A DNA stretch of 50,922 nucleotides, taken from Escherichia phage AV106. Below, piece by piece: positions 31,150 to 49,547 of the stretch (position 1 is its first letter; every line of letters starts with the position of its first letter). Location of the stretch: the sequence record OR352937.1. The stretch is one strand, 5' to 3'. A program made the position numbers and the translations under genes. The notes below the pieces were generated by a model. It worked only from the letters and a program-made list of their open reading frames with translations, was not told where the DNA came from and made no database searches.

Positions 31150-31335
31150 TTAAATCTCCTTTATTAATTCAATATTTATTTTGTGAGTGTCAAGGTTAGC
31201 GCCGGAAAGTTTTTTTGCTTTCGCGATGGCTTCTGCCTGACTGGTTGCTGATAATTCAGTTTCGAAAGATTGCTTGCACGACTGGCAAAACATTCCCATC
31301 TTTCGAATAATTAATTTAACTTTGAATCGCTTCAT
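31150..31335 (-). CDS. Hypothetical small protein
   Basis: 61 aa; CxxC pair; start overlaps the 3' end of the small ORF upstream. Confidence 0.35.
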   Translation of the reverse strand: MKRFKVKLIIRKMGMFCQSCKQSFETELSATSQAEAIAKAKKLSGANLDTHKINIELIKEI

Positions 31336-31477
31336 CTTCCTGCGCCTTAATCATAACGCCAGCAATGCGACCAATAACAGCCTCGCCAGGATTTAATCGT
31401 TTTTTATAACGAGTGGTTTCACCGTTGCGAGTTACTTTAATTTCGATTTTGACTGATTCGTTTTTGATATTTTGCAT
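31316..31477 (-). CDS. Hypothetical small protein (53 aa, absent from the ORF track)
   Basis: ATG behind RBS AAGAGGA; translates MQNIKNESVKIEIKVTRNGETTRYKKRLNPGEAVIGRIAGVMIKAQEDEAIQS; below the track length cutoff. Confidence 0.35.
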   Translation of the reverse strand: MQNIKNESVKIEIKVTRNGETTRYKKRLNPGEAVIGRIAGVMIKAQEDEAIQS

Positions 31478-31641
31478 TACGCAATCCTCTTGAATTGTTG
31501 CCGCTTACGGGTCTGCGGCGTTGCTTAACCACTATGCAACCGAGCTTGTTAGCTGGAAGTGTGAGAATCGTCTCACGCGTTGCGCTTATTTGCGCCTCGT
31601 CTGTCTACGGGATTAATACTATCACCGCTCAGAGATTCAGG

Positions 31642-31845
31642 TCAATCATTAATTTCAAATTGGCCCTTAGTAATATCCTGCGGGTAGTCAATCTCATGAA
31701 TATTTCCATCGTCTCCGTATACAAATACGAGTCTCTTTGCTTTACTTACTTTTTCAACGTCATACAAGCATCCAGCTGAGAAAGCATCACCATTGCGTGA
31801 TGTAACACATCGAACCTGATCGCCTTTCTTCGGTAAGTTAGCCAT
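31642..31845 (-). CDS. Hypothetical protein
   Basis: 67 aa; RBS GAGGGG; coupled to the upstream gene. Confidence 0.4.
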   Translation of the reverse strand: MANLPKKGDQVRCVTSRNGDAFSAGCLYDVEKVSKAKRLVFVYGDDGNIHEIDYPQDITKGQFEIND

Positions 31846-32075
31846 TATTCGTAATCCCCCTCTTTGTTACCTACGCGCCCTGCAATATATCCGGCAGTCC
31901 AGACAAATTTGTAGCGGTCGATGAGTAGCTCGACCTTTTTGTGGTGAGCCGAGATTACATCAATCATGATCTTGTCATTTTTACGATCTTCTTTCTTCAT
32001 GCCGCTGACGAATTTATTCAGTTCCTTCGCTGCGCGCTTTACTACGTTCCATTCTGCTTCACTTAAACCGAACAT
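31845..32075 (-). CDS. Hypothetical protein
   Basis: 76 aa; TAATG stop/start overlap with the upstream gene. Confidence 0.4.
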   Translation of the reverse strand: MFGLSEAEWNVVKRAAKELNKFVSGMKKEDRKNDKIMIDVISAHHKKVELLIDRYKFVWTAGYIAGRVGNKEGDYE

Positions 32076-32419
32076 TATTTATCACCTTTGAATGAAAAAC
32101 CTACACCTAAAACCTGATTGCAAACTGATTCCATGTATCGCAACTGGTATTGAGCAACATTTGAAGGACTTAATTCATCGGCAAATAAACTCTCAACATT
32201 GATTTCTTTTTTATGCTTGCGCTTCCATGCCTTGATGATATTTGGCAGGATGCGCTCGCTCTTCCAGGCTGCAAACTCAGCTTGATTCGTTGAAACAGGA
32301 GTAAGTTGCTTTTCGATCTGGTTGAGCAACTCGGCAGTTGCTCCTTTTACGTGCAATTGGTCGCCGATCGCATCAAGGATTTCACGAGCTTGCTTCTCTG
32401 ATAGGTTAATCGTAATCAT
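32075..32419 (-). CDS. Hypothetical protein
   Basis: 114 aa; RBS AAGAGGA. Confidence 0.4.
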   Translation of the reverse strand: MITINLSEKQAREILDAIGDQLHVKGATAELLNQIEKQLTPVSTNQAEFAAWKSERILPNIIKAWKRKHKKEINVESLFADELSPSNVAQYQLRYMESVCNQVLGVGFSFKGDK

Positions 32420-32424
32420 TCCTC

Positions 32425-32625
32425 TTATCCTTCATTTTCGATCGGTGTAAAAAACTGAGTGTTCACTGCCGGGTTATAATAAACTCCGTCGTCATAGTCG
32501 CTTTTTTTCACCTCGATAAAAACGTCGCAACCGTCATGCATGAAGTCACCATCATCAGTTTCAATAAGTTCGAATACTTCAGAAGTTTTATTGCATTTAA
32601 ACAACTTTCCAGCATATAACATCAT
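32425..32625 (-). CDS. Hypothetical acidic small protein
   Basis: 66 aa; preceded by the dyad motif, a hairpin and a -10 element. Confidence 0.4.
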   Translation of the reverse strand: MMLYAGKLFKCNKTSEVFELIETDDGDFMHDGCDVFIEVKKSDYDDGVYYNPAVNTQFFTPIENEG

Positions 32626-32657
32626 TTCGATTTTCTCTCTTTGTTGTCGATGAGGTA

Positions 32658-32703
32658 ACTATATCAAATCACCCCACCGACGTTTTAGCAATTCGCGCTA
32701 TTT
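32658..32703 (-). promoter_or_regulatory. Dyad-motif promoter
   Basis: AATAGCGCGAATTGCTAAAAC, 22 bp, TATAGT in a hairpin loop; upstream of ORF 32425..32625. Confidence 0.55.
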
Positions 32704-33270
32704 GTTGATGACCGTAGCGGCTATGTGCTGAGCGGTAATTTCTGGATGACCTTCGACAGAGAAGAAATCACACTCCTGATAACCATTAACCCCGATCATA
32801 TCTTCCAGGTAAATATAATCACGACTGTCGTTGTCAAAGTTGCAGCCTTTGCGGTGGATTCGGCATAGCTTGACCTGGATATCACCTTCAATCATCTGCA
32901 ATACCTCATCTTTGAATCCACCATCAGTAAATACTGACAGAGAATATGACTCTTTGACCTTGCTTTCCGCTCGCATACCGAAGAATCGATTTCCGAACTG
33001 TGGCTTGATGACTTCCTCGCTAATCCAGATCATAAACTGGCGAGGGCTTTTACCGTTCAGGATTGACGCTGGCTCTTCTTTGTAACGACGATCCTCATAC
33101 AAGAACATGAAATACTCGTAGTTAGTCTCACCCAGGATTGCCCGAGCAATCTCAAACATTGGTTCTTTGAAGCTGCGCAAAGCTACATGATCGTAAGTGT
33201 CAGCCAGGATGCATCCGATAGTGTCCTTGCCTGCTCCAGGGGCGCCGTTTAAAATGATAGCTGTTTTCAT
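32698..33270 (-). CDS. Deoxynucleoside monophosphate kinase (T4 gp1-like)
   Basis: 190 aa; P-loop NGAPGAGKDT; ILNGKSPRQFMIWISEE resembles T4 dNMP kinase YLNGKSPIKGVFVFDDE. Confidence 0.65.
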   Translation of the reverse strand: MKTAIILNGAPGAGKDTIGCILADTYDHVALRSFKEPMFEIARAILGETNYEYFMFLYEDRRYKEEPASILNGKSPRQFMIWISEEVIKPQFGNRFFGMRAESKVKESYSLSVFTDGGFKDEVLQMIEGDIQVKLCRIHRKGCNFDNDSRDYIYLEDMIGVNGYQECDFFSVEGHPEITAQHIAATVINK

Positions 33271-33271
33271 A

Positions 33272-33382
33272 TCAGTATCTCCCTAAAAATAATTTTGCCA
33301 TATTGATAATAGTGTGATTGATGATTAGCAGGATGATAACCGTCAATGCCGGATGTGCTGCAATAAATTCGTATAGGTTCAT
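33272..33382 (-). CDS. Hypothetical small hydrophobic peptide (36 aa, absent from the ORF track)
   Basis: ATGA overlap with the HAD gene stop; translates MNLYEFIAAHPALTVIILLIINHTIINMAKLFLGRY; its stop abuts the kinase start. Confidence 0.3.
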   Translation of the reverse strand: MNLYEFIAAHPALTVIILLIINHTIINMAKLFLGRY

Positions 33383-33912
33383 TTCTCTACCCCGTGCGAT
33401 TTTAAATGATCGTGAACGTTGTCGCCATAGTCAACTACAGCATATGTGGTTATTCCAAGCGACCGGAATAATGGAATAATTTGCGGTGAATCATCCCAAG
33501 CCGCGAGGATGTTTTCAATACCGATCGCTCGCACAGCTTCCTCTTTCATCACTGTGTCTTTCCGGTTGTCTGTGTGCGGTCGCATGACTAAGTAATCATA
33601 TCGCGCACCGTGATGCTTAAGCCACAACTCAGATGCGTAACGAACCTCATCACTTCGCCCGGTTAAAACTATTACGTGATACCCAGCGGCAAACATAGAG
33701 TTCATCACCTCAATCGTGCTCTGGATGGGGTTATCAAATATTGCGGCTCGATTAAACTCAGACCAGCTTTCAGTCAAGTGCAAATCCTTTGTTGGCAACA
33801 GGTGAAGGCGCTTTGATCCATCACTCAGTGTTCCGTCAAAGTCAAAGATTGCGACGCGGCGCGGACCGAGAAACAGGTTGATAGTTTGACCCCAAATTGT
33901 AATTTTATCCAT
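33379..33912 (-). CDS. HAD-superfamily phosphatase (nucleotidase-like)
   Basis: 177 aa; motif I FDFDGT near the N-terminus and downstream acidic motifs typical of HAD hydrolases. Confidence 0.6.
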   Translation of the reverse strand: MDKITIWGQTINLFLGPRRVAIFDFDGTLSDGSKRLHLLPTKDLHLTESWSEFNRAAIFDNPIQSTIEVMNSMFAAGYHVIVLTGRSDEVRYASELWLKHHGARYDYLVMRPHTDNRKDTVMKEEAVRAIGIENILAAWDDSPQIIPLFRSLGITTYAVVDYGDNVHDHLKSHGVEK

Positions 33913-33952
33913 TATTTATTCCTATGATTGGTTGCTTAACTCAACGAAGGGC

Positions 33953-33998
33953 ATTCTATCAAATGCCCTTGAGCAAGTTTTAGCAATTAGTGCTATTA
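33953..33998 (-). promoter_or_regulatory. Dyad-motif promoter
   Basis: AATAGCACTAATTGCTAAAAC, 22 bp, TAGAAT (preceded by TGa) in the loop of AAGGGCAT...ATGCCCTT; upstream of the HAD gene. Confidence 0.55.
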
Positions 33999-34442
33999 CC
34001 AGTAATCTACCTCGTAGTCAGCCCAGGCGTCAAAATCACTTTGGCAGAATGTGCCGCTATAATTTTCCATCATTTCATCGATCAGGAAGTAGCAGGACTC
34101 ACCGTTACGATAGAAGTATGAATCAGCAACGTTACGCGCCCAGCGCCCAGCATCCTTCTTGCTCATCTTCCAGTGCTTCATGGCGATTTTCTTAAATGCG
34201 CGAACAATACGCTTGCGGATCTTGACATTCTTGTACACAGCGTTGCATCCGTAAGCCATATATTCATTGTTGCCAAGATTCTGCATGATGTACGGATTAA
34301 CGTCTTTTGACGTAATCATCAGATCGCCATCGCCGCGACGCGCATCATAAATGCTTGCTGTCATGTAGTGGCCTTTGAACATTCCAATGCCGTGCAGAGT
34401 GTGTTCATCGTTAGGCGTTTCAATGCAGATTAAGTGTTTCAT
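33996..34442 (-). CDS. Hypothetical protein
   Basis: Start moved to ATG (MKHLICIE) behind RBS GAGGAAG; the track's N-terminal extension reads through the promoter hairpin. Confidence 0.45.
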   Translation of the reverse strand: MKHLICIETPNDEHTLHGIGMFKGHYMTASIYDARRGDGDLMITSKDVNPYIMQNLGNNEYMAYGCNAVYKNVKIRKRIVRAFKKIAMKHWKMSKKDAGRWARNVADSYFYRNGESCYFLIDEMMENYSGTFCQSDFDAWADYEVDYW

Positions 34443-34472
34443 GATCGCTTCCTCGTTTGTTGGTGTAGGGGA

Positions 34473-34518
34473 ATCATAGCGCATCCCCCTTGATAGGTTT
34501 TAGCAATTCGTGCTATTC
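34473..34518 (-). promoter_or_regulatory. Dyad-motif promoter
   Basis: AATAGCACGAATTGCTAAAAC, 22 bp, TATGAT in the loop of GGGGGA...TCCCC. Confidence 0.55.
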
Positions 34519-34718
34519 GTTTTAATAGTGATGCAAAAATAATTTTTTAAGCACGTTACCACGCGCGCTGAATCGACTTGTGGGAGCCTCAAAATTTCGT
34601 GGACCAATTGCACTGCCGACACCTCAGATTTGTAGTAGTGTGCGATTCTGGAGGTGTTTGGGCGCATTCCTTCCACCGCGTCACGCGCTGCATCTTCTGC
34701 TGTCATGATAGTAGCCAT
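34500..34718 (-). CDS. Hypothetical protein
   Basis: 72 aa. Confidence 0.35.
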   Translation of the reverse strand: MATIMTAEDAARDAVEGMRPNTSRIAHYYKSEVSAVQLVHEILRLPQVDSARVVTCLKNYFCITIKTNSTNC

Positions 34719-34821
34719 AAAACACCCTTAAGAGATAATGTCAGGACTAGGAGGCAGAATAGCAACTCCTGAAATGATGGCGGCTCGTTATTCCAGTTAT
34801 AAAAGTCTGGCATAGTGTTTT

Positions 34822-34860
34822 CTCCAAAAGAAAGGGGAACAGCTCAGAGTCGATTCCCCG
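34822..34860 (-). terminator. Terminator after ORF 34867..35505
   Basis: Minus strand GGGGAA...TTCCCC followed by TTTCTTTT. Confidence 0.45.
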
Positions 34861-34866
34861 TTAAAA

Positions 34867-35505: not shown

Positions 35506-35789
35506 GGTCTAACCTTCCTGTAAGGCTTGATTGATAACATCACGTATTGCGTGAAGTCGCATTCTTGCTCGTCATAACCGCGATTGATGTATGGCGTCAC
35601 GTCTGTAACATCGGACACCATGGCGTGAACTTCCCACCCGGTAAACTCGTCACGATCGAACTCGCGTAGCTCAAGGATATCACCAACCTGGAAGTTGCGG
35701 TCATTGACGCGGAACTCTGCCGTTTTGGTTCCGTTCATTACACCAATGAAATGTACCGGGGAGATTTTTAACTTATGAGTTTTGCTCAT
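35502..35789 (-). CDS. ASCH/DUF3850-like small protein
   Basis: 95 aa; N-terminal HKLKISPVHFIGVMNGTKTAEFRVNDRNFQVGDILELRE matches the ASCH-like pattern. Confidence 0.45.
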   Translation of the reverse strand: MSKTHKLKISPVHFIGVMNGTKTAEFRVNDRNFQVGDILELREFDRDEFTGWEVHAMVSDVTDVTPYINRGYDEQECDFTQYVMLSIKPYRKVRP

Positions 35790-36057
35790 CTTTCTTTACC
35801 TCGAATGTCACGTTCCAGAATTTATTGCCGCATGAGTGATAGATTACGTCCTGAGACGTGAGTTCGTGCAATGCGTGCCCGATAATCTCCATTCGGTCAT
35901 TCGGCGTCAGTCCGCGAAGCGATTCACGAAGGCGTGAGGCCTTGTCGTAAATCTGCCACTGCGTGAGTCGTGCAGCCATAGCTAATTCCTTATTTGCAAA
36001 ACGGGCAGGTTGATTTATTTCCGCTGCCGCCATGATTAGGGCAGCACACTTTCTCAA
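35773..36057 (-). CDS. Hypothetical protein (start uncertain)
   Basis: 94 aa in the track with a TTG start; first ATG is 8 codons in; overlaps a 25-aa Cys-rich ORF that carries the canonical leader. Confidence 0.3.
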   Translation of the reverse strand: MRKCAALIMAAAEINQPARFANKELAMAARLTQWQIYDKASRLRESLRGLTPNDRMEIIGHALHELTSQDVIYHSCGNKFWNVTFEVKKDEQNS

Positions 36058-36107
36058 TTGGTGTCATAACTGATTCCTCTGATTGGTTGCCATGCTTCAA
36101 TAAGGCC

Positions 36108-36153
36108 ACTATATCAAATGGCCTTGCGGAAGGTTTAGCAATTCGTGCTATCG
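36108..36153 (-). promoter_or_regulatory. Dyad-motif promoter
   Basis: GATAGCACGAATTGCTAAACC, 22 bp, TATAGT (preceded by TGa) in a hairpin, then leader AACCAATCAGAGGAATCAGTT-ATG. Confidence 0.55.
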
Positions 36154-36297
36154 TTTAACGCACATAGTTTTTACTTCATATCCGAACGGCTTGTTTTCTG
36201 CAATCACCTCCCGAGCTTTTTCGCATGATTGCTGACTTTCCATGTATACGTGATCCGGCCCGGTGCTCATCAAGATAATCAAGACCCATGCAGCCAT
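36148..36297 (-). CDS. Hypothetical small protein with hydrophobic N-terminus (49 aa, absent from the ORF track)
   Basis: TAATG overlap with the upstream gene; translates MAAWVLIILMSTGPDHVYMESQQSCEKAREVIAENKPFGYEVKTMCVKR; stop codon lies inside a dyad motif. Confidence 0.3.
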   Translation of the reverse strand: MAAWVLIILMSTGPDHVYMESQQSCEKAREVIAENKPFGYEVKTMCVKR

Positions 36298-36803: not shown

Positions 36804-36831
36804 AATGATTTCCTCTTAGTGGTTGATATGG

Positions 36832-37635: not shown

Positions 37636-37809
37636 CTATTTGCAAGTGATCTCATTTGATGTGATTGGTAGCAAAACGTTGCCAACCATCACAAACGTAG
37701 TAACCTGGTTCCCGGTCTTATGACAGCTATCTCTGACCTCTCCGCATCCTGACACTACCAGGATAGCCAGGGCGACCGCCGCCATCATGCAAATCAATAT
37801 TCGCATCAT
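37636..37809 (-). CDS. Small lipoprotein (57 aa)
   Basis: Start moved to ATG-ATG; signal peptide MMRILICMMAAVALAILVVSGC with lipobox LVVSGC; mature part has further Cys; ATGA overlap with the upstream peptide. Confidence 0.4.
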   Translation of the reverse strand: MMRILICMMAAVALAILVVSGCGEVRDSCHKTGNQVTTFVMVGNVLLPITSNEITCK

Positions 37810-37916
37810 TCGAACGCCCCAGCACACAGGAGAAGCATTACCACGATGCCGACCATAACGTGACCCATGCAGAAGAACCAGACGGCAGACCATAGAGCTA
37901 TTGTATTGAAGTTCAT
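37806..37916 (-). CDS. Small hydrophobic membrane peptide (36 aa, absent from the ORF track)
   Basis: ATGA overlap with stop of ORF 37913..38140, RBS GAGGTG; translates MNFNTIALWSAVWFFCMGHVMVGIVVMLLLCAGAFE; stop overlaps the lipoprotein start. Confidence 0.3.
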   Translation of the reverse strand: MNFNTIALWSAVWFFCMGHVMVGIVVMLLLCAGAFE

Positions 37917-40064: not shown

Positions 40065-40111
40065 TTGTCTATACCTCGTTGTCTATGGGTGTAACTTTCA
40101 ACTTCGAAAAA

Positions 40112-40141
40112 CATGTTACAGCTACAACGTCAGGCGCGTCA
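40112..40141 (-). promoter_or_regulatory. Candidate sigma70-like promoter for the first minus-strand early gene
   Basis: Minus strand TTGACG, 18-bp spacer, TAACAT, about 40 nt upstream of the GTG start at 40064. Confidence 0.35.
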
Positions 40142-40348
40142 ATGTCTATAGCTGCATTTTTTATTTTTGTAACCAGTGCAACCGATGCAACCGACTTTTT
40201 CTATAAAAGTAAGCACATCTATTTATGCGCGCGGAATAGTATGTTTTTTATACTATGCATCACGAAATATATGCCACCATCAAAAAATGCGGTTGCACCT
40301 ATTACGCCGATTACATACCAATATATAATATAATAAATAAATAAATAT

Positions 40349-40427
40349 ATATTATCTATCTTATTATTATATATAGATATTTTATTATATATAGGCCCAT
40401 CGACTCGCTGGCCATTTTGTAACACCC
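40349..40427. repeat. AT-rich control module, copy B
   Basis: Same two anchor sequences (13 bp and 14 bp identical) with the same 52-bp spacing as copy A. Confidence 0.6.
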
Positions 40428-40677
40428 CTGATGGTATACAACTATTACGACAATTACAACTACCGCATAGACGAATAGCACGTTTTGCTAAAAATGGAGA
40501 TGACTACAAGGCGAACCGGGTAACACTAGATCCTCCCTCTCACAATCATTGCATTCCAAGCAACAATCACATCAACAGTTGCACATCATGCAACAATCAC
40601 ATTTCATCATTCGGGATCAATCAGGATCGCAATTATTCCAGATATTCCATTGCTGGTGGAATAATGAGCAACTATTG

Positions 40678-40724
40678 GAATAGCATTTTTTGCTAACGAC
40701 TTGGTCAGGCTGGCAGTGTATGAT
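40678..40724 (+). promoter_or_regulatory. Dyad-motif promoter for the C5-methyltransferase gene
   Basis: AATAGCATTTTTTGCTAACG, 23 bp, TATGAT, then leader CATCAACCAATCAGTAGGAGA. Confidence 0.5.
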
Positions 40725-40757: not shown

Positions 40758-41462
40758 ATGAAATTAATCTGGTCGCTATTCGACGGTTCCGGTCTTGCTG
40801 GTCATGAACTGGCTAAGCAAGGTCACAAGGTGATGTGCTTCAACTTTGACGGAGCCGATCACGGGGATTATGCAAAGTACAATGCCCGGGTGGAGCATCC
40901 GAACATTGAGTATGTGAACGTGTTCATTGACGCAGCGTTTGAGCGTGATGCTATCGCTGGCGTGTATGGCAAGCCGGATTTCATTATGGCCTTCCCGCCG
41001 TGCACTGACCTGGCTGTTAGTGGTGCCGCTCACTTCGCAAGAAAGCGTGAACGCGATCCGTTATTCCAGGAGAAGGCTGTTGCCACCGCCCGGATTACTG
41101 CAAATATTGGCGACGCCCTGGGCGTGACTTACATCATTGAGAATCCGGTTAGCGTCCTGTCATCTGCCTGGAGAAAACCAAATCACTCCTTCAATCCCTG
41201 GGAGTATGGCGGCTATCTTCCTGAGAATGACTCACACCCCTGGTTCCCTATGTATATTGCGCCGCGCGATGCTTACCCGAAGAAAACTTGTCTGTGGACC
41301 TCTGACGATTTTGTCATGCCTGAAAGAAAACCTGTAAGCCTACCTGACGGGTACTCTGCACAGCACAGTAAGCTAGGCGGCAAATCTGCCAAAACTAAGT
41401 TGATACGATCCCTGTCGCCGCGTGGATTTTTCAAAGCGATCGCAAATAGCACTTTTTGTTAA
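40758..41462 (+). CDS. DNA (cytosine-5) methyltransferase, short Dcm-like
   Basis: Start moved to ATG behind a dyad-motif promoter and leader; motif I LFDGSGLAG (FxGxG), motif IV FPPC (catalytic Pro-Cys), motif VI IENPV (ENV-like). Confidence 0.55.
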   Translation: MKLIWSLFDGSGLAGHELAKQGHKVMCFNFDGADHGDYAKYNARVEHPNIEYVNVFIDAAFERDAIAGVYGKPDFIMAFPPCTDLAVSGAAHFARKRERDPLFQEKAVATARITANIGDALGVTYIIENPVSVLSSAWRKPNHSFNPWEYGGYLPENDSHPWFPMYIAPRDAYPKKTCLWTSDDFVMPERKPVSLPDGYSAQHSKLGGKSAKTKLIRSLSPRGFFKAIANSTFC

Positions 41463-41489
41463 AACTCGATCGGTGTGATTTGGCATAAT
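41445..41489 (+). promoter_or_regulatory. Dyad-motif promoter
   Basis: AATAGCACTTTTTGTTAAAAC, 22 bp, CATAAT; overlaps the 3' end of the methyltransferase ORF. Confidence 0.55.
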
Positions 41490-41522
41490 TACCTCATCGA
41501 AACGAGATTGAGGAAAAACAAA

Positions 41523-41708
41523 ATGGCACGTCGCATCACTAAAGACCTTAAAGTTCTGAACAAAGAAAACGTAGTTAAAATTCTGGTTATTTGGGGGTAC
41601 AACGAAGAATCAGCAAAGCAGAAGGTAGAAGCGGGTTACGATCTGGCTGTCAAAGCGATGCCTAACGACGACGCAAAAGGCATTGCAAACTATGTATCAT
41701 TCTTTTAA
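41523..41708 (+). CDS. Hypothetical small protein
   Basis: Start moved to ATG (MARRITKDL) after dyad motif, CATAAT and RBS GAGGAAAAA. Confidence 0.4.
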   Translation: MARRITKDLKVLNKENVVKILVIWGYNEESAKQKVEAGYDLAVKAMPNDDAKGIANYVSFF

Positions 41709-41723
41709 TTAACGGGCTAACAA

Positions 41724-41909
41724 ATGAAAACGAAATTAGTGCATAAATCAGAAATCAAGATAGGCGACACTGTGATTCACAACGGAGAGCTTAGAACTGT
41801 TGGTAAGGAGTCAATAACCAAAGATGAATTTATGGGGTTATTGTTGTTCGGCGACTCTTATCGCTTGGGTTACAAAATGGTTGAGCTTGTTGAGGAAGTA
41901 AAATTCTAA
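41724..41909 (+). CDS. Hypothetical small protein
   Basis: 61 aa. Confidence 0.35.
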   Translation: MKTKLVHKSEIKIGDTVIHNGELRTVGKESITKDEFMGLLLFGDSYRLGYKMVELVEEVKF

Positions 41910-41953
41910 ATAGCACGAATTGCTAAACGCCCCGAGGGGAATCGGGGTATAGT
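41908..41953 (+). promoter_or_regulatory. Dyad-motif promoter
   Basis: AATAGCACGAATTGCTAAACG, 22 bp, TATAGT in the loop of CCCCGA...TCGGGG, then leader CATCAACCAATCAGGAGA. Confidence 0.55.
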
Positions 41954-41984
41954 GAACACATCAACCAATCAGGAGAATCGCCAG

Positions 41985-42219: not shown

Positions 42220-42591
42220 ATGTTTAAGCATTTCACAGATCTGGACTTCTCAGCCAGCACAGCAATCCAGACTGACGAGAAAGAAAGCGTAGCGATCGAG
42301 AACATCGCGCGCAAGATTTACAATAAGCAAGAGAAGGCCGTGAGAGCAGCTCTAACCGCCTATTATGGTGTAAGTGATGCAATGGAGTGCGTGAACCGAG
42401 TAACGCGCGTGGTGGACCATTCTGGCGTTTCTCGCTTCGTCGATAAAGATACTGGCGAGACAATCATTCAGCTAAACAATCCATCAATGCGTACTGAGTT
42501 AGGAAATATTGCACTGTGGGGAGTTGCTAACTATTCAATCACCGTTAACTCATGTGTAGCGGATCGCGTTAAGGAGGCATTGTATGAGTGA
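42220..42591 (+). CDS. Hypothetical protein
   Basis: Start moved to ATG (MFKHFTDL) behind RBS AGAGGG. Confidence 0.4.
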   Translation: MFKHFTDLDFSASTAIQTDEKESVAIENIARKIYNKQEKAVRAALTAYYGVSDAMECVNRVTRVVDHSGVSRFVDKDTGETIIQLNNPSMRTELGNIALWGVANYSITVNSCVADRVKEALYE

Positions 42592-42798
42592 TAATATTTA
42601 CCGCGTAGTGGCGATCTCACGTAAGACTCAGAAAAAAGTAATTGCCTACATGGGGAATAGCGCCATTGAAGCTACAGACGCTTTCGAATTGCTAAAGAAT
42701 AACGAATGATTTATGAACACGTTCCGAGTTCGACTTGAGCGCCTTGAACCTGTTATTATTGACGAATCGAGAAAGCTATCCTGACTGGTTAGGGGGGG

Positions 42799-43122
42799 AT
42801 GATGAACCACACTTACAAAATCACAACGAAATCACCGAAGATTAACGGAAGTACGGTAGTCGCACTGAATAACGCGGCAGCAATCCACGAAAAAAACATC
42901 ATGGAGCGCGTTAAGGCGGCGGTGGGCCGATTCTACGGAATAAACGCTGATATTGCCGACAGCAAACGACTGTTCAAATACGTGCCAGGCCATCCGTACA
43001 GTCGGATGATCGACATTAAGCATGATAAAGAACTGGTTAGAATCGGATCGCTTAGCATTGACGAGTTCGACCATAACATTAACCTTGTAACGGCGTATCA
43101 AACTTGGGACGGTAAAAAATGA
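42799..43122 (+). CDS. Hypothetical protein
   Basis: 107 aa; RBS GGGGGGATG. Confidence 0.4.
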   Translation: MMNHTYKITTKSPKINGSTVVALNNAAAIHEKNIMERVKAAVGRFYGINADIADSKRLFKYVPGHPYSRMIDIKHDKELVRIGSLSIDEFDHNINLVTAYQTWDGKK

Positions 43123-43260
43123 TTTATATTCACACTTTCTATACTGGCAAATTTAACAGAGTAAAAAATGTTCGCGTTTACGATAGCCACCAAAAAGCAA
43201 TGATGCAGAAAGTAGTTCTAGGTGGAACAATCAAAGAGTGCAAAGTAATTTCTGAGTACT

Positions 43261-43306
43261 GATAGCACGAATAGCTAAAGACAATAAATAGGGAGTAAGG
43301 TATATT
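43261..43306 (+). promoter_or_regulatory. Dyad-motif promoter
   Basis: GATAGCACGAATAGCTAAAG, 23 bp, TATATT. Confidence 0.5.
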
Positions 43307-43563: not shown

Positions 43564-43566
43564 TTA

Positions 43567-44273: not shown

Positions 44274-44275
44274 CC

Positions 44276-44320: not shown

Positions 44321-44349
44321 TTACACCGTCAACTAAGGAGTTTATTGTG

Positions 44350-45918: not shown

Positions 45919-45922
45919 TAAT

Positions 45923-46330
45923 ATGCTTCTTCTTTTAGATCTGTTCAGGTTCTGCGAAGGTTACGACAAATACACTCGACAGCACATAGCGAAATTTATA
46001 TACGCCCACAAGGAAAGTGAGCGTTTTGCTAAGGCTGCTGGAATGACTCGCCGTGAATTTACAAGCGCGCTATCTAAGGAGTTTTGCGCTCGTTGCGTGA
46101 CTGAGGGTTACTTAGATCGCAATGATGGAGTTTACTGGTGCAAGGGAAAGATTAAGCGCCCGGTAATGATGAAGCTGATGTGTATTGATGGCTACAACAA
46201 TCGGTATACGTGGGAAATGATGCACATTGGAGAGATGAGTGATGAAGATTTGTTTGGCGAACGTAGAAACATTGATAGATCGGAACGTCGAATTGTGCGC
46301 AAGGCTCCAGCTTACGAAAGAAGAATTTGA
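45923..46330 (+). CDS. Hypothetical protein
   Basis: 135 aa; several Cys (CxxC-like). Confidence 0.35.
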   Translation: MLLLLDLFRFCEGYDKYTRQHIAKFIYAHKESERFAKAAGMTRREFTSALSKEFCARCVTEGYLDRNDGVYWCKGKIKRPVMMKLMCIDGYNNRYTWEMMHIGEMSDEDLFGERRNIDRSERRIVRKAPAYERRI

Positions 46331-46442
46331 GCAAGGGTTGTTGAGTCTGTTACTCACTTCAATGAGGGCCAGTAACGAAAGCGAGCATAATCTTTGCGAT
46401 AAGGAGGGGGAGTTACTCCTTCATGTGAAAAGGTACAAATAA

Positions 46443-46470
46443 GAAAGGAGGCTTAGCCTCCTTTTTTTCC
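46443..46470. terminator. Bidirectional terminator between the convergent plus early array and lysis cassette
   Basis: AGGAGGC-tta-GCCTCCT followed by TTTTTTT. Confidence 0.6.
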
Positions 46471-46857
46471 GTTCTTACGAAGTGAAAAATAAATCATCAA
46501 CAGGCCAATAAAAACGAGAGTCCACCCTACAATTGCATCGTACCAGTTCCCCGGTTTTGTTACCGTGATGCTTTCAGCGTTAACCGTGTTAGCCTGAATG
46601 GTTGACACTTCTACAGACTTCTTGACGGATGAGTCAATCTTGCCAATATTTGAATCACTCACCTTCACTTCTCGCTTATCGTCGGCCTTTGCAGTAACTC
46701 CCGCCAGTTGCTTCGTGTTCTCAGCGCCAACCTGCGCAGTAACATCCGGGGAGTCAGAAAGTAAACCGCTCAGAGCAGATGCCGTCGAGCAACCGGATAG
46801 AGAAATAACACCAACAGCCACTGCAATCGCAATGCACGTTTTCTTCAGTTTCATCAT
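46453..46857 (-). CDS. Unimolecular spanin (lipoprotein with C-terminal transmembrane anchor)
   Basis: 134 aa; N-terminal signal peptide with lipobox LSGC and C-terminal helix [19 protein letters not shown], the topology described for T1 gp11; directly downstream of the endolysin. Confidence 0.6.
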
Positions 46858-47342
46858 AATTCCTTAACGCAATACGCGTATTCTTCAGCGCGTCGGTTCT
46901 TTAGTCCTCTAGACACTTCGCGCTTTTTGGTTTTTGGGTTGTAGTAGTATACCCATCGCCATAACTGATTGCACGCTTCCTTGTGCTTACTCTGATTTAT
47001 TAGCTTAAGCATTGTAGAAGATCCGAACGCGCCAGTACCGACGTTGAAAGTGAAGCTGTACAGTGACGCGCGCATCGTTACCGGAATATCAACATTCACC
47101 TTTTTGTCAACGTATCGCTGAGCGACTCCGATATGTTTTATCAGCAATGCATCGCATTCTCGCTTAGTGTATTTCTTGCCAGGTATGACGTCCGGCCCGG
47201 TTATTCCGCTGCATACTGTAGGGACTCCGGCTATATCGTAATACACCTCGTATTCTATCCCTTCGATTCGTTCCAGTAGTGTAGGTGTCAACGTCAAAGC
47301 GGCCCCGATCGATGCGCCTATAACGTTATTTTTTAAGCTCAT
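46854..47342 (-). CDS. SAR endolysin (phage lysozyme with signal-anchor-release N-terminus)
   Basis: 162 aa; Gly/Ala-rich weakly hydrophobic N-terminus [17 protein letters not shown] followed by the conserved lysozyme core (EGxxY...VPTVCSG...YSFTFNVG); resembles P21-type R lysozymes; RBS GGAGATA. Confidence 0.75.
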
Positions 47343-47557
47343 TATCTCCCCCTGATCTTAAGCGCCTTATTTAGATCGCCATCGTTTAACGCTTCCTGAA
47401 TCGCCTTGCTATCACGATACTTCCAGTATGCTCCCCAAGCACCAAAAAGCAGAAAGCAAATGAATGTAGCGCCAGCAATGTAAAGTTGCCCGGTAGCGGC
47501 CCCGACTAATGAAGCGCCGCCCGTGCTGGACGTCGCAGCGGTTAAAAATTCTTTCAT
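47342..47557 (-). CDS. Holin, pinholin-like with two transmembrane segments
   Basis: Start moved to ATG (MKEFLTAA) behind RBS GGTGAG; TMD1 Gly/Ala-rich (SAR-like), TMD2 [14 protein letters not shown], charged C-terminus; directly upstream of the SAR endolysin. Confidence 0.55.
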
Positions 47558-47675
47558 AATCTCACCATATATTTTTTGAACAAGTGAGTCGATTTTAACC
47601 TTCAAATTTATTTTATACAACGCAAAAAGGCCAGCATGTAAATCATGCCAGCCCGTAAGGTTATGAATGATATTG

Positions 47676-47852
47676 TTAATCTAGCTCAATAAATTCCAGG
47701 TAATGACCATTCAGAGGAGCTTGGATTGTTGAACCTCTACCATCGTAAATCTCAAACAATCCACCTCCGAAATCATAACCAACACTATAGATCTGATTTA
47801 CGCGGAATGGAAGCGTTTTGGAATCATTTCGGATGCACTTAACTCGTTTCAT
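47676..47852 (-). CDS. Hypothetical small protein (58 aa, absent from the ORF track)
   Basis: ATG behind RBS AAAGAGGG, with a degenerate dyad motif and TATATT 22 bp apart upstream; translates MKRVKCIRNDSKTLPFRVNQIYSVGYDFGGGLFEIYDGRGSTIQAPLNGHYLEFIELD. Confidence 0.35.
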   Translation of the reverse strand: MKRVKCIRNDSKTLPFRVNQIYSVGYDFGGGLFEIYDGRGSTIQAPLNGHYLEFIELD

Positions 47853-47881
47853 GAAATACCCTCTTTGTTTTCTATGTGGTC

Positions 47882-47924
47882 AATATACCCGAATCCCTTC
47901 GGGAATTTTTGGCGATTAGTGCGA
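47882..47924 (-). promoter_or_regulatory. Degenerate dyad-motif promoter upstream of small ORF 47676..47852
   Basis: GATCGCACTAATCGCCAAAAA, 22 bp, TATATT; hairpin CCCGAA...TTCGGG. Confidence 0.4.
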
Positions 47925-49067
47925 TCCTGTCATTTCTGGACGATAGATGAATCGACCGATTTCACCAAACTGTTTATCGTAAACGATTACCGCCGCCTGG
48001 CGATATGAGCGCCACCCGCCTCGCGCTGCGTATGCATCTTTCGCGCCTAACTGCCCGTGAACCTCATCAATACCTAACGAGTGCTCAGTGATTGTCTGAT
48101 GATGCCAGTGTCCGCTATGCGTGTACACGTATTTGCTTTCACCAAAATCTGCGCGGAAATCTGCTGCCATAGCTGCGAGTCGAGTCTCTGCTTTTTTCAT
48201 CGTGTGACCGTGAGTATATCCCAGCAAAGTATTTCCCCAGCGAGTCTTATGTAGAACCATAGGGCTTACGTCAACGAATACTCTTGGCTCGTCTTCATAG
48301 TATGCAGCCATTGCGGCGCGCAACCAAATCATCCCGGCCTGGTCGTGGTTTCCTTCGACAACCTGAACTTCGACCTCTTTGTGTTTAGTCAGCATTTTGT
48401 CGATAGCTCGTCGCACCGATCGAATAGCCACATGCACCAATTTCGCATATCGTGAATCCTGATCCAGAACGTGACCACTTGCCGGGGTAACAGCATCAAG
48501 ACCGTCTGAGTGAAGGAAGTCGCCGCCGATTAACAGAACAGCCTTCTCTGCGTTCGGGGCAATATCGATCGCGTAGTTAAAGAAGTCATTCAGCACTTTT
48601 TCCGCTACGTCTGTAGAGTAGTTCTCTCCGCATTCATGCTTGTGAGCAAGCGCGCCAATGTGAAGATCGAACACCGGGTAGAGTGCTAGCTTGCCAATAG
48701 CGGTTGTAAGCCCTTGCGAGGTGAGTAGCTCAGTTGGTTTTGCTCGCGGCAAGTCTTCACAGAATGCAATACGCGCTGCTTCCATCATTGCAGCAATCTT
48801 CTCTCGGTCCTGATCGGTCTTAACCCATCGCACTACCTCGGTCCCATCGCCGCGAATCATCGTTGATGTGCCTTTTACCATGAATCCTTCCGGTACGTTC
48901 TTAGCAACATGCTCGTTACCGTGGAAGTGACCTTCTTTTGCAAGTTTGGCGTGACGCGCTTCAACTGTGCGGATGTGCATACCGTACTTTTCCGCGATCT
49001 CGCGAAGTGTAAGGCCGCTCATGCGCTCTTCGATAAGTTGCTCGGTAGTGATTTTAGCTTGTGACAT
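47916..49067 (-). CDS. Calcineurin-like metallophosphoesterase with N-terminal HTH domain
   Basis: 383 aa; N-terminal LTLREIAEKYGMHIRTVEARHAKL (HTH-like); phosphoesterase motifs GDFLHSD, GNHD, GHWHH. Confidence 0.6.
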   Translation of the reverse strand: MSQAKITTEQLIEERMSGLTLREIAEKYGMHIRTVEARHAKLAKEGHFHGNEHVAKNVPEGFMVKGTSTMIRGDGTEVVRWVKTDQDREKIAAMMEAARIAFCEDLPRAKPTELLTSQGLTTAIGKLALYPVFDLHIGALAHKHECGENYSTDVAEKVLNDFFNYAIDIAPNAEKAVLLIGGDFLHSDGLDAVTPASGHVLDQDSRYAKLVHVAIRSVRRAIDKMLTKHKEVEVQVVEGNHDQAGMIWLRAAMAAYYEDEPRVFVDVSPMVLHKTRWGNTLLGYTHGHTMKKAETRLAAMAADFRADFGESKYVYTHSGHWHHQTITEHSLGIDEVHGQLGAKDAYAARGGWRSYRQAAVIVYDKQFGEIGRFIYRPEMTGSH

Positions 49068-49145
49068 ATTTTAATCCTTACATGATAATGAAATACATTA
49101 CTGAAAATGAAATTAGCGGTGTTAATACTACAGCAAAATAAAGAT

Positions 49146-49547
49146 TCATGCCACAGCCTTTAACCAGAATCCTAGATCTGACGATTTAAACTCAACCAGC
49201 TTTCCGTCAACCTCAAGCATCATACTGTTTCTACCAGGTGAGTAATAACCTATATGCAACTCCTGATCGATCCCTATGGTACACAGCACGTTTGCGAAGT
49301 CAGGAGGCAACCAATCAGAGAAAGGTATTTTCTTAACCTGCTTCTTTCCGATCCATATGGTCTGGTAATCGTCTTCGTTAATGTTTAAGCCTGGAAGGCT
49401 TGTTGTTCTTTGCTGCTTTTCGTTCTCTCTCAATTCTCTTTCCCTCTTCACGATAAAACTCAAGTGACGGAGTTGCTGGCACTCTATGCATTTTTCTCGG
49501 CATATCTTCCATAAATGAAATCTTGCCATTTGAGATAATGCTAACAT
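49146..49547 (-). CDS. Hypothetical protein (start uncertain)
   Basis: 133 aa in the track; overlaps ORF 49378..49650 in another frame and a dyad-like sequence lies inside the overlap. Confidence 0.3.
   Translation of the reverse strand: MLALSQMARFHLWKICREKCIECQQLRHLSFIVKRERELRENEKQQRTTSLPGLNINEDDYQTIWIGKKQVKKIPFSDWLPPDFANVLCTIGIDQELHIGYYSPGRNSMMLEVDGKLVEFKSSDLGFWLKAVA

What the first reader, a model, noticed from the sequence alone, without database searches (positions are those of the whole stretch)
31316..49148. Several small ORFs below the track cutoff have proper ribosome-binding sites or stop-start coupling
Seen directly: 31316..31477 (53 aa), 33272..33382 (36 aa, hydrophobic), 35990..36067 (25 aa, Cys-rich), 36148..36297 (49 aa, hydrophobic N-terminus), 37806..37916 (36 aa), 42585..42710 (41 aa, ATGA-coupled), 43119..43262 (47 aa, ATGA-coupled), 47676..47852 (58 aa) and about 49077..49148 (23 aa, hydrophobic). 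Each starts at an ATG overlapping the upstream stop or 5-10 nt after a GAGG-type RBS. Inference: the early region encodes a set of micro-proteins, several membrane-targeted, of the kind phages often use for host takeover or anti-defence.
Basis: partly seen in the sequence, partly recalled or inferred. Interest (0 to 1): 0.45.

Follow-up and report, generated by a model that had tools for sequence, protein, structure and literature searches.

The report
Real micro-genes in a T1-like phage
The small ORFs are genuine, selection-constrained genes of a T1-like phage; most are already catalogued as hypothetical proteins, but a mobile 25-residue Cys/His peptide and a 23-residue membrane-type peptide beside an exonuclease gene are largely or wholly unannotated.

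Summary
The window is a T1-like coliphage (Drexlerviridae, Tunavirus-like, 91-94% identical to deposited relatives). All nine ORFs exist: seven at the stated coordinates and two shifted by 1 nt; seven lie on the minus strand. Seven of nine have a Shine-Dalgarno match of at least 4 nt, against 14% of background small ORFs (P=3e-5). Five overlap the upstream stop by 1-4 nt.

Eight are under purifying selection in the claimed frame (pN/pS 0.06-0.17; 0.46 for c9), against 0.6-7.5 in shifted frames.

- Six (c1, c4, c5, c6, c7, c8) belong to existing PHROG families and are annotated in T1. c8 is also in Pfam DUF7244.
- c6 is not a 41-aa gene. It is a conserved 66-codon gene cut by a TGA where all nine relatives have Gly.
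- c2 is a Tunavirus-only membrane-type peptide that few records annotate.
- c3 (25 aa, invariant C9/H12/C21/C24) is absent from most close relatives. It is exactly 25 codons in 30 copies from Drexlerviridae, Skatevirus and T4-like Pseudotevenvirus, mostly unannotated, and was found in no bacterial genome.
- c9 (23 aa, hydrophobic) was annotated in none of the 15 records whose annotation tables I read. It sits just upstream of the exonuclease gene in five genera.

No evidence bears on host-takeover or anti-defence roles.

The parts
31316..31477 (-). c1, 53-aa soluble protein (homologue of T1p57, phrog_6666)
   Evidence: Own AGAGGA RBS 7 nt upstream. Intact in 10/10 relatives. pN/pS 0.12, against 2.0 and 0.6 in the shifted frames. 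phrog_6666 E=1e-33. Annotated in T1, DELF2 and others. 81% identical homologue in the Sertoctavirus BrunoManser.
33272..33382 (-). c2, 36-aa hydrophobic peptide between the polynucleotide kinase and P-loop NTPase genes
   Evidence: ATGA overlap with the kinase gene's stop, and 1 nt before the next gene's ATG. Intact wherever present, with ATG or GTG as start. pN/pS 0.11, against 1.7 and 1.9. 24-residue uncharged run, KD 2.53. Found in 55 records, all Tunavirus-like. Annotated in 3 of the 9 relatives' tables read (LeonhardEuler, IME18, ULIM2). Replaced by an HNH endonuclease gene in T1. No PHROG or Pfam match.
   Evidence: GGAG RBS 8 nt upstream. Intact in 11/11 sequences, pN/pS 0.15 against 1.2 and 4.3. 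A 111-bp CDS is annotated at the syntenic position in T1 and LeonhardEuler.
35990..36067 (-). c3, 25-aa Cys/His-rich peptide MTPIEKVCCPNHGGSGNKSTCPFCK; two CPx[CH] knuckles
   Evidence: AGAGGA RBS 7 nt upstream. Among 10 Tunavirus relatives present only in Sfin-1. Exactly 25 codons in 30 copies (22 distinct DNA sequences) from Tunavirus, Sertoctavirus, Tlsvirus, Skatevirus, Pseudotevenvirus and a Klebsiella phage. pN/pS 0.17 with pS 0.79, against 1.7 and 1.3. C9, H12, C21 and C24 invariant. Absent from 185,579 bacterial/archaeal species genomes.
36068..36151 (-). One copy of the repeated intergenic cassette (21-nt box ATAGCACGAATTGCTAAA, hairpin containing a TATAGT -10-like hexamer, then the ACCAATCAGAGGA RBS) that heads the unit starting with c3
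   Evidence: 16 matches to the box in the window against 2.06 expected by chance. Repeat families D1-D4. Layout of all copies. 88-98% identical in distant Drexlerviridae. The 21-nt box is already described in TLS, T1, Rtp and Rogue1, function unknown (PMC11447400).
36148..36297 (-). c4, 49-aa protein with a short hydrophobic N-terminus (phrog_5579)
   Evidence: GAGGTGA RBS and a TAATG overlap with the upstream gene. Intact in 10/10 relatives. pN/pS 0.12. phrog_5579 E=2e-26. Annotated in every relative inspected. Hydrophobic run of only 14 residues.
37806..37916 (-). c5, 36-aa almost entirely hydrophobic peptide (phrog_25570)
   Evidence: GAGGTG RBS, with ATGA overlaps to both the upstream and downstream genes. 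Intact in 10/10 relatives. pN/pS 0.10. In the stretch overlapped by the 85-aa ORF, the c5 frame gives 0.10 against 2.2 and 4.3. 35 uncharged residues, KD 2.79. Annotated in T1, LeonhardEuler and ULIM2 only.
37636..37809 (-). 57-aa lipoprotein-like gene directly coupled to c5; the true extent of the '85-aa ORF'
   Evidence: 174-bp CDS in relatives. pN/pS 0.15. The sequence MMRILICMMAAVALAILVVSG-C has a lipobox-like motif.
42584..42784 (+). c6: a conserved 66-codon gene (phrog_6503) interrupted by TGA at codon 42 (42707..42709).
   Evidence: All nine relatives have GGA or GGG (Gly) at codon 42 and an intact 201-bp gene. AAGGAGG RBS and an 8-nt overlap with the upstream gene.
43119..43262 (+). 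c7, 47-aa protein (phrog_3955)
   Evidence: ATGA overlap with the upstream gene. Intact in 9/9 relatives. pN/pS 0.08; 23 of 28 variable columns are at third positions. phrog_3955 E=4e-26. Annotated in T1 and most of the relatives inspected.
47676..47852 (-). c8, 58-aa protein (homologue of T1p14, Pfam DUF7244, phrog_4788)
   Evidence: AGAGGG RBS 7 nt upstream. Intact in 8/9 relatives; ULIM2 has a nonsense codon. pN/pS 0.17. DUF7244 99.9 bits against a cut-off of 27. 78% identical homologue in BrunoManser.
49078..49149 (-). c9, 23-aa hydrophobic peptide MNLYFAVVLTPLISFSVMYFIIM, directly upstream of the exonuclease gene 47916..49067
   Evidence: ATGA overlap with the upstream gene. Its TAA stop is part of the TAAGGA RBS 10 nt before the exonuclease ATG. 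Intact in 9/9 Tunavirus relatives and in 59 records at 90% identity or more. Same-length homologues at the same position in Sertoctavirus, Badaguanvirus, Vilniusvirus and Ec-G8, and a 25-aa counterpart in Webervirus. pN/pS 0.46 against 0.97 and 1.59. T concentrated at codon position 2, P=1.7e-5. No CDS at this position in any of the 15 annotation tables read.

Best explanation
The nine ORFs are authentic cistrons in the densely packed accessory-gene arms of a T1-like virulent phage.

How they are expressed (inferred from anatomy). They are transcribed as parts of short polycistronic units. Each unit is headed by the known T1-type intergenic cassette: a 21-nt box, a hairpin containing a -10-like hexamer, and a conserved RBS. 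Translation starts either from the ORF's own Shine-Dalgarno site (c1, c3, c8) or by coupling to the preceding gene through a 1-8-nt stop/start overlap (c2, c4, c5, c6, c7, c9).

What is shown. Eight ORFs are kept intact by purifying selection on the encoded peptide. c6 is a recently inactivated allele, or a sequencing error, of a 66-aa gene.

What the products are (inferred from sequence):
- c1, c4, c7 and c8 are small soluble accessory proteins of catalogued but uncharacterised families.
- c2, c5 and c9, plus the missed c10, are single-helix membrane-type peptides.
- c3 is a 25-residue peptide built from two rubredoxin-type CPx[C/H] knuckles. It most likely binds one Zn2+ through Cys9, His12, Cys21 and Cys24. 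It behaves as an independent mobile gene that has moved between unrelated virulent enterobacterial phages by recombination at gene junctions.
- c9 is made in step with the exonuclease encoded immediately downstream. Terminating ribosomes are released on that gene's RBS.

Biochemical roles are not known for any of them.
For: Genome identity and synteny.

ORFs intact in relatives.

Selection in the claimed frame against shifted frames: c1 0.12, c2 0.11, c4 0.12, c5 0.10, c6 0.06, c7 0.08, c8 0.17; c3 0.17 with pS 0.79; c9 0.46; c10 0.15. Third-position enrichment: P from 2e-2 to 1e-8.

RBS enrichment: P=3e-5. Exact stop/start distances.

Family membership: PHROGs for six and DUF7244 for c8.

c6: TGA against GGA/GGG in nine relatives.

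c3: 30 copies, all 25 codons, from at least four unrelated phage lineages, with canonical RBSs. Ligand residues are invariant, and the chance of keeping all four is 0.004-0.045 per lineage. The gene arrived as an 88-nt insertion bounded by a duplicated RBS-ATG. None found in bacterial genomes.

c9: positional, length and hydrophobicity conservation in five genera. Phase-specific T at codon position 2, P=1.7e-5.

Cassette; PMC11447400.
Against: - There is no direct evidence of translation. No ribosome profiling or proteomics for any T1-like phage was found in the paper library.
- c9's selection signal is modest: pN/pS 0.46, third-position P=0.07, and about 0.07 chance of staying open in three lineages. 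Within Tunavirus it is almost invariant at the DNA level (3 variable columns of 72, none synonymous). That would also fit a nucleotide-level constraint.
- Zinc binding by c3 rests on motif logic only. The AlphaFold model was low-confidence (pLDDT 64). No Pfam or PDB relative exists.
- Membrane insertion is inferred from hydropathy alone.
- Several of the genes are individually dispensable: c2 is absent from T1, c8 is truncated in ULIM2, c6 is truncated here, and c3 is absent from most relatives.
Confidence: 0.85

Rival explanations
1. c9 is a leader/coupling ORF and not a functional peptide. What matters is that ribosomes translate through the gap and terminate on the TAAGGA site, which delivers them to the exonuclease start codon. 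The hydrophobic product is incidental.
For: In six lineages the stop codon is embedded in the exonuclease RBS 8-10 nt before its ATG. In Webervirus the stop lies 3 nt before the ATG. c9 has an ATGA or near-adjacent link to the upstream gene. Protein-level constraint is only moderate (pN/pS 0.46). DNA is almost invariant within Tunavirus.
Against: Length (23-25 codons), Pro11, Phe15, Tyr19 and the hydrophobic character persist through about 35-40% nucleotide divergence. T is concentrated at codon position 2 in every lineage (P=1.7e-5). A pure coupling device would not need that.
Confidence: 0.25
2. The small ORFs are chance open frames in intergenic or regulatory DNA and encode nothing.
For: Short ORFs are abundant: 262 ATG-ORFs of 20-59 aa in the window. 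ORF intactness alone is weak evidence at about 90% identity. Simulated survival is 0.37-0.5 per lineage even at cross-lineage divergence.
Against: Frame-specific purifying selection in eight of nine. Third-position enrichment down to P=1e-8. RBS enrichment P=3e-5. Six match independent PHROG profiles at E<1e-25. c3 keeps exactly 25 codons in 22 distinct DNA sequences.
Confidence: 0.03
3. c6 (41 aa) is a functional shortened protein in its own right, possibly followed by re-initiation at the ATG two codons after the stop to give a second, 23-aa piece, and not a dead allele.
For: The excellent AAGGAGG RBS is retained. An in-frame ATG lies 3 nt after the TGA: codons are GAA TGA TTT ATG. The downstream 23 codons differ from relatives at only one residue.
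Against: All nine relatives encode an uninterrupted 66-aa protein under the strongest constraint of the set (pN/pS 0.06). The near-identity of the downstream part fits a very recent mutation or a base-calling error equally well.
Confidence: 0.1
4. The micro-proteins are host-takeover or anti-defence effectors.
For: They lie in the accessory arms of the genome, are small, are individually dispensable, and vary between close relatives. c3 is horizontally mobile and restricted to virulent phages. These are general hallmarks of phage counter-host genes (established knowledge, not tested here). One database homologue of c3 carries the third-party label 'restriction alleviation protein'.
Against: No similarity to any characterised protein. 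c3 gave no Pfam hit at all at E<=0.1, so the label is unsupported; c3 shares only a terminal CPFC motif with the Lar family. There are no functional data in the literature searched.
Confidence: 0.3
5. c3 is conserved because the DNA or RNA is a regulatory element, and the peptide is not what is selected.
For: It lies immediately downstream of a conserved regulatory cassette in the window.
Against: In other phages it sits in unrelated contexts without the cassette: after ParB in Skate, after NadM in Lw1. 24 of 25 third positions vary while the peptide is 64-96% conserved, and other frames give pN/pS above 1. No Rfam hit.
Confidence: 0.02

Closest known systems
Annotated small hypothetical genes of coliphage T1 and relatives (T1p57, T1p14 and others; PHROGs 6666, 5579, 25570, 6503, 3955, 4788; Pfam DUF7244)
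   Same: c1, c4, c5, c6 (full length), c7 and c8 are orthologues: same positions, 86-99% DNA identity, full-length profile matches.
   Different: Nothing substantive, except that c6 carries a premature TGA in this genome. Their functions are unknown in every database consulted.
Rubredoxin/zinc-ribbon 'knuckle' motifs (CPxCG) and other minimal zinc-binding peptides
   Same: c3 has two CPx[C/H] turns (C9-P-N-H12-G and C21-P-F-C24) eight residues apart, with all four candidate ligands invariant across lineages. Recognising this as the knuckle pattern rests on established motif knowledge.
   Different: At 25 residues it is shorter than any Pfam zinc-ribbon domain and matches none. The best PDB profile hit is insignificant (E=1.1). 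One ligand is His. Metal binding is untested.
Lar/Ral-type restriction alleviation proteins (a label attached to one c3 homologue in a third-party metagenome annotation)
   Same: A small phage-encoded protein with a CPFC motif.
   Different: c3 ends right after CPFCK, whereas Lar-family proteins begin with that knuckle and continue for about 50 more residues (from memory). The Pfam scan of c3 returned no family at E<=0.1. It should not be filed as a member.
Small hydrophobic bacterial and phage membrane peptides (under 50 aa, single helix) encoded in operons and translationally coupled to a partner gene
   Same: c2, c5, c9 and c10 are 23-36 residues with one long uncharged hydrophobic run. c2, c5 and c9 overlap the preceding gene's stop by 4 nt.
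   Different: No sequence relationship to any named small membrane protein. The pairing of c9 with an SbcD/Mre11-type exonuclease gene has no described precedent that I could find in the library (one search returned nothing relevant).
The intergenic 21-nt direct repeats of T1-like phages (aaATAGCACnnnTTGnTAAAA; PMC11447400)
   Same: The conserved stretch between c4 and c3 is one of at least 16 copies. They are oriented with transcription and lie about 80 nt upstream of start codons.
   Different: Here the box is seen as part of a longer cassette. A hairpin with copy-specific stems encloses a TATAGT-like hexamer, followed by a conserved ACCAATCAGGAG RBS. The cassettes coincide with the junctions where genes differ between phages. 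The paper leaves the function open.

Membership tests
PHROG families 6666 (c1), 5579 (c4), 25570 (c5), 6503 (c6 full length), 3955 (c7), 4788 (c8) | Full-length match to the family profile at a significant E-value | tested here: met
   E-values from 1e-26 to 4e-42, covering residue 1 to the end of both query and profile.
Pfam DUF7244 (c8) | Score above the curated gathering threshold | tested here: met
   99.9 bits against a cut-off of 27; residues 1-58 aligned to profile positions 1-57 of 57.
Protein-coding gene (all nine) | Excess of synonymous over non-synonymous change in the claimed frame but not in shifted frames | tested here: met
   pN/pS 0.06-0.17 for c1-c8 and 0.46 for c9; shifted frames 0.6-7.5. 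For c9 within Tunavirus the test has no power (3 variable sites).
Protein-coding gene (all nine) | Direct evidence of translation (ribosome footprints or peptide detection) | not testable with these tools
   No such data for T1-like phages were found in the paper library.
Translationally coupled cistron | Start codon overlaps or abuts the stop codon of the upstream gene on the same strand | tested here: met
   Overlap of 4 nt (ATGA) for c2, c5, c7 and c9; 1 nt for c4; 8 nt for c6. Not met for c1, c3 and c8, which follow gaps of 164, 80 and 63 nt and have their own RBS.
Zinc-ribbon / rubredoxin-knuckle metal-binding peptide (c3) | Four Cys/His ligands arranged as two CPx[C/H] turns, conserved across homologues | tested here: met
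   C9, H12, C21 and C24 are invariant in 15 distinct peptides. Cys8 is replaced in RB43 and vB_EcRAM-01.
Zinc-ribbon / rubredoxin-knuckle metal-binding peptide (c3) | Match to a curated zinc-ribbon profile or a solved zinc-binding structure | tested here: not met
   No Pfam family at E<=0.1. Best PDB profile hit E=1.1. AlphaFold model pLDDT 64, uninformative.
Zinc-ribbon / rubredoxin-knuckle metal-binding peptide (c3) | Stoichiometric metal binding | not testable with these tools
   Requires a peptide and spectroscopy or ICP-MS.
Lar-type restriction alleviation protein (c3) | Match to the Lar family profile | tested here: not met
   The Pfam scan of c3 returned no family at E<=0.1. Only a third-party name on one 38-aa homologue suggests it.
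   c2 24 residues (KD 2.53), c5 35 (2.79), c9 23 (2.12). Not met for c4 (14 residues, KD 1.35). Actual insertion was not tested.
T1-type intergenic 21-nt repeat (element between c4 and c3) | Consensus aaATAGCACnnnTTGnTAAAA, intergenic, oriented with transcription, about 76 nt upstream of a start codon | tested here: met
   An exact CACGAATTGCTAAAC at 36133..36147(-), 84 nt upstream of the c3 ATG. 16 copies against 2 expected, all oriented with local transcription. Definition from PMC11447400.

The most novel reading that the evidence does not exclude
c3 defines a previously unrecognised family: a 25-residue zinc-knuckle peptide, among the shortest conserved phage proteins. It has been exchanged horizontally between unrelated virulent enterobacterial phages (Drexlerviridae, Skatevirus, T4-like Pseudotevenvirus) and is essentially invisible to gene callers. 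Such mobility and conservation would be expected if it binds and disables a conserved host factor, for example a defence or nucleic-acid-handling protein. In parallel, c9 would be an unannotated membrane peptide that works with, or localises, the family's SbcD/Mre11-like exonuclease.
Probability: 0.25. Interest if true: 0.65.

Novelty: new member of a known kind. Interest (0 to 1): 0.38.

Why it matters
For six of the nine ORFs nothing changes. They are catalogued hypothetical genes of T1-like phages.

The value lies in three points.

1. Standard annotation of a very well-sampled phage family still misses conserved genes below about 30 codons. c9 is unannotated in all 15 records whose tables I read, although homologues occur in 59 or more. 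c3 was unannotated in most of the rows listed from 145 matching records. When it is called, it is called with a spurious upstream extension.

2. c3 is a compact, experimentally tractable candidate. It can be made as a synthetic 25-mer to test as a phage effector, and it is shared by phages as different as T1-like and T4-like viruses.

3. The conserved intergenic cassettes, whose function the TLS authors list as an open question, coincide with the points where such mini-genes are inserted or swapped. This suggests they serve both as expression signals and as recombination junctions.

Tried and rejected
- IMG/VR scan with a neighbouring 191-aa protein to collect relatives: only two loci, so GenBank phage records were used instead.
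- Rfam and tRNA scans of the whole window: nothing. The conserved gap between c4 and c3 is not a known RNA family.
- Generic sigma-70 promoter and terminator scan: counts equal to shuffled expectation, so uninformative.
The workaround with the 44-aa Lw1 annotation found only four called proteins.
- PDB profile search for c3: nothing significant.
- AlphaFold2 of the 39-aa GTG-extended reading of c3 with four homologues: pLDDT 63.8. No fold search was run because the model is unreliable.
- NCBIfam and PADLOC scans of all ten peptides: nothing.
- Literature: no paper contains 'MTPIEK'. No translation or proteomics study of T1-like phages was found.
- TLS gp05 (26 aa) was considered as the c3 homologue and rejected on length and pI.
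- My first 'coupled' flag was too permissive: 52% of the small ORFs inside genes met 'SD>=4 or coupled'. It was replaced by explicit distances to real gene ends.
- Reading TTGCTA in the 21-nt box as a -35 element paired with the TATAGT hexamer was rejected, because the spacing is about 22 nt.
- Searches were script or parameter errors.

Full report
**What the window is.** Megablast of 31000-50000 against 50,697 phage records finds 545 matching records. The best are Tunavirus members (DELF2, XJA18, IME18, SA12KD, LeonhardEuler, Sfin-1), covering 85-94% of the query at 90-94% identity. The window is therefore a T1-like virulent siphophage of Enterobacteria (Drexlerviridae), not identical to any deposited genome. 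The region under study is the gene-dense accessory part of the genome. It has a minus-strand arm (about 30.3-40.1 kb), a divergent plus-strand arm (40.7-46.3 kb) and a second minus-strand block that contains the lysis cassette, an exonuclease gene and a Dam methylase gene.

**Checking the observation.** All nine ORFs exist.
- Seven coordinate pairs are exact. Two are one base off: the true ORFs are 42584..42709 and 49078..49149.
- c1, c3 and c8 follow gaps of 164, 80 and 63 nt and have AGAGGA or AGAGGG sites 7 nt before the ATG.
- c2, c5, c7 and c9 overlap the upstream stop as ATGA, and c4 as TAATG.
- c6 overlaps the upstream gene by 8 nt, not as ATGA, and has an AAGGAGG site.
- A Shine-Dalgarno match of at least 4 nt occurs in 7 of 9 candidates, against 34 of 239 small ATG-ORFs that lie inside larger genes (binomial P=3.3e-5).

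**Are they genes?** I collected nine distinct Tunavirus relatives, T1 itself included.
- c1, c4, c5, c7 and c9 are intact in every relative that has the region.
- c2 is intact wherever present, with ATG or GTG as start. In T1 an HNH endonuclease gene occupies its place.
- c8 is intact except in ULIM2, which has a nonsense codon.
- Pooled Nei-Gojobori pN/pS in the claimed frame is 0.12 (c1), 0.11 (c2), 0.12 (c4), 0.10 (c5), 0.06 (c6, full length), 0.08 (c7) and 0.17 (c8). Frames shifted by one or two bases give 0.6-7.5.
- Variable columns concentrate at third codon positions, with P from 2e-2 to 1e-8.
- Six match PHROG profiles end to end at E<1e-25, and c8 is Pfam DUF7244. T1's own annotation carries CDSs of 162, 150, 111, 201, 144 and 177 bp at the syntenic positions.

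These six are real genes that are already known, all of unknown function.

**Corrections.**
- c6 is not a 41-aa gene. Positions 42584..42784 form one 201-nt frame with TGA at codon 42. All nine relatives have GGA or GGG there and encode a 66-aa protein, the most constrained of the set. It is a recent nonsense mutation or a base-calling error.
- The 85-aa ORF that overlaps c5 is an artefact of an upstream in-frame ATG. In the overlap, selection acts on the c5 frame (0.10, against 2.2 and 4.3). The real downstream gene is 57 aa (37636..37809), ATGA-coupled to c5, with a lipoprotein-like N-terminus.
- A tenth small gene was missed: 34703..34813(-), 36 aa, pN/pS 0.15, with a syntenic 111-bp CDS annotated in T1.

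**c3, the 25-residue Cys/His peptide.** Among the ten Tunavirus relatives it is present only in Sfin-1.
- tblastn finds it in 145 phage records, 137 of them full length. Beyond Tunavirus these include a Sertoctavirus, Tlsvirus, Skatevirus, a Klebsiella phage and T4-like Pseudotevenvirus members (Lw1, Xman, RB43). Most of the listed rows show no annotated feature under the match.
- With 21 IMG/VR loci added, 30 copies comprising 22 distinct DNA sequences are all exactly 25 codons long. Most have a canonical RBS.
- pN/pS is 0.17 with synonymous sites near saturation (pS 0.79), and 24 of 25 third positions vary. Other frames give 1.3-1.7.
- Neighbouring genes differ completely between lineages (ParB-like, NadM-like, methyltransferase), so it is an autonomous cistron.
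- Gene callers reach it only by extending upstream to unrelated sequence.
- Cys9, His12, Cys21 and Cys24 are invariant, while Cys8 is not. Random substitution at the observed divergence would keep all four in 0.4-4.5% of trials per lineage. The two CPx[C/H] turns match the classic zinc-knuckle pattern (established motif knowledge), but no curated profile or solved structure matches, and the structure prediction was uninformative.
- No copy was found in one genome from each of 185,579 bacterial and archaeal species.
- In the window it sits in an 88-nt insertion directly after the ATG of a conserved cassette, flanked by a duplicated GGAAT(C/T)AG(C/T)T-ATG. T1, DELF2 and ULIM2 carry other genes after the same cassette.

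**c9, the 23-residue hydrophobic peptide.**
- Within Tunavirus it is almost invariant in DNA (3 variable columns of 72), so the selection test has no power there.
- Weak tblastn hits that looked like noise all lie at the same place, the unannotated gap just upstream of the exonuclease gene. They occur in BrunoManser (Sertoctavirus), IME347 (Badaguanvirus), NBD2 and KLB19 (Vilniusvirus) and Ec-G8. Lengths are 23-24 codons, Pro11, Phe15, Tyr19 and the C-terminal I-[IV]-M are conserved, and the TAA stop forms part of the TAAGGA site of the exonuclease gene.
- Webervirus phages have a 25-codon hydrophobic ORF in the same gap.
- Across genera pN/pS is 0.46, against 0.97 and 1.59.
- T occupies codon position 2 in 50-73% of codons but positions 1 and 3 in only 25-41%, in every lineage (P=1.7e-5). 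That is the signature of coding for hydrophobic residues and not of a merely T-rich spacer.
- I rate it a probable gene (about 0.7). The main rival is a pure translational-coupling ORF.

**c2.** It occurs in 55 records, all Tunavirus-like. The kinase and NTPase genes abut directly in BrunoManser and Webervirus, with no c2 between them.

**Context: the intergenic cassette.** The stretch between c4 and c3 stood out because it is 88-98% identical in hundreds of otherwise diverged Drexlerviridae.
- It is one of at least 16 oriented copies of ATAGCACnnnTTGCTAAA, against about 2 expected by chance.
- In most intergenic copies the box is followed by a hairpin whose stems differ between copies, enclosing a TATAGT-like hexamer. 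Several copies then have ACCAATCAGGAG and the first ATG of a unit.
- The 21-nt box is already published for TLS, T1, Rtp and Rogue1, with its function flagged as an open question (PMC11447400).
- A whole unit between two cassettes (about 41444-41965) is shared at 87-89% with phages in which nothing else of the 19-kb query matched. This fits the cassettes acting as recombination junctions.

**Function.** Nothing in PHROGs, Pfam, NCBIfam, PADLOC, the PDB or the searched literature assigns a role to any of the ten peptides.
- Hydropathy supports a single membrane helix for c2, c5 and c9, and perhaps c10, but not for c4.
- The host-takeover or anti-defence idea is reasonable in general for variable, dispensable accessory genes of virulent phages. 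Here it is untested.

**Verdict.** The interpretation that these are micro-proteins is supported, while the functional claim is open. Most of the set is ordinary and already catalogued. The new content is the recognition of the c3 and c9 families and the diagnosis of c6 as a truncated gene.

Noticed in passing
window 36068..36151(-), with further copies at about 32647-32701, 33942-33996, 34462-34516, 37384-37438, 38438-38492, 39175-39229, 47871-47925 and 49859-49913 (minus strand); box-only copies at 40475, 41446, 41910, 43262, 43777 and 44277 (plus strand): A repeated, transcription-oriented intergenic cassette. It consists of the 21-nt box ATAGCACnnnTTGCTAAA, then in most intergenic copies a hairpin whose stem sequences differ between copies around a TATAGT-like hexamer, then in several copies ACCAATCAGGAG and the ATG. 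The box is published (PMC11447400) with function unknown. The hairpin, RBS and junction aspects are my reading. The TAG inside the box serves as the stop codon of c4.
   Followed up: partly
It is conserved in 11/11 sequences, with pN/pS 0.15, and a 111-bp CDS is annotated at the syntenic position in T1 and LeonhardEuler.
   Followed up: yes
window 37636..37809 (-): A 57-aa gene ATGA-coupled to c5 that encodes a lipoprotein-like product (signal-like helix ending LVVSG-C). A membrane peptide and a small lipoprotein are thus co-translated as a pair. It is distinct from the minus-strand 228-bp gene near the tail-fibre genes of T1, which from memory I take to be cor. Function unknown.
   Followed up: partly
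window about 41444..41965 (+): A complete unit between two cassette copies (ORFs 41475..41708 and 41724..41909) is 87-89% identical to phages assigned to other groups (vB_Eco_mar001J1, Sip, EC167, B1.3), in which nothing else of the 19-kb query matched by megablast. This suggests recent horizontal exchange of a cassette-bounded module.
   Followed up: no
window 40549..40602 (+), in the 636-nt divergent intergenic region 40065..40700: Two 24-nt direct repeats 30 nt apart (TTGCAYWYCAWGCAACAATCACAT) lie between the two divergently transcribed arms. They could be an operator or an origin-like element. This region also carries different small ORFs in different relatives.
   Followed up: no
L008 (T1, MK213796.1) 5465..5959; L011 (ULIM2) 18506..18607: Accessory micro-genes are individually dispensable. 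T1 has an HNH endonuclease gene exactly where c2 lies in other Tunavirus genomes. ULIM2 has a nonsense codon in its c8 homologue, where only a 102-bp CDS is annotated in place of the 177-bp gene.
   Followed up: partly
L015 (Lw1), L016 (RB43), L018 (Xman), around the c3 homologue: In the T4-like phages the c3 homologue lacks a Shine-Dalgarno site. It is preceded by an in-frame ATG five codons upstream (MKILTM...), so a 30-aa form may be made there. It follows a NadM-type NMN adenylyltransferase / ADP-ribose pyrophosphatase gene.
   Followed up: partly
record MN994500.1 (Phage NBSal001): This record has exactly the window's length (50,922 bp) and carries a c3 homologue, but at 84% identity, at a different coordinate and on the other strand. 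I take the equal length to be a coincidence; this was not checked further.
   Followed up: no
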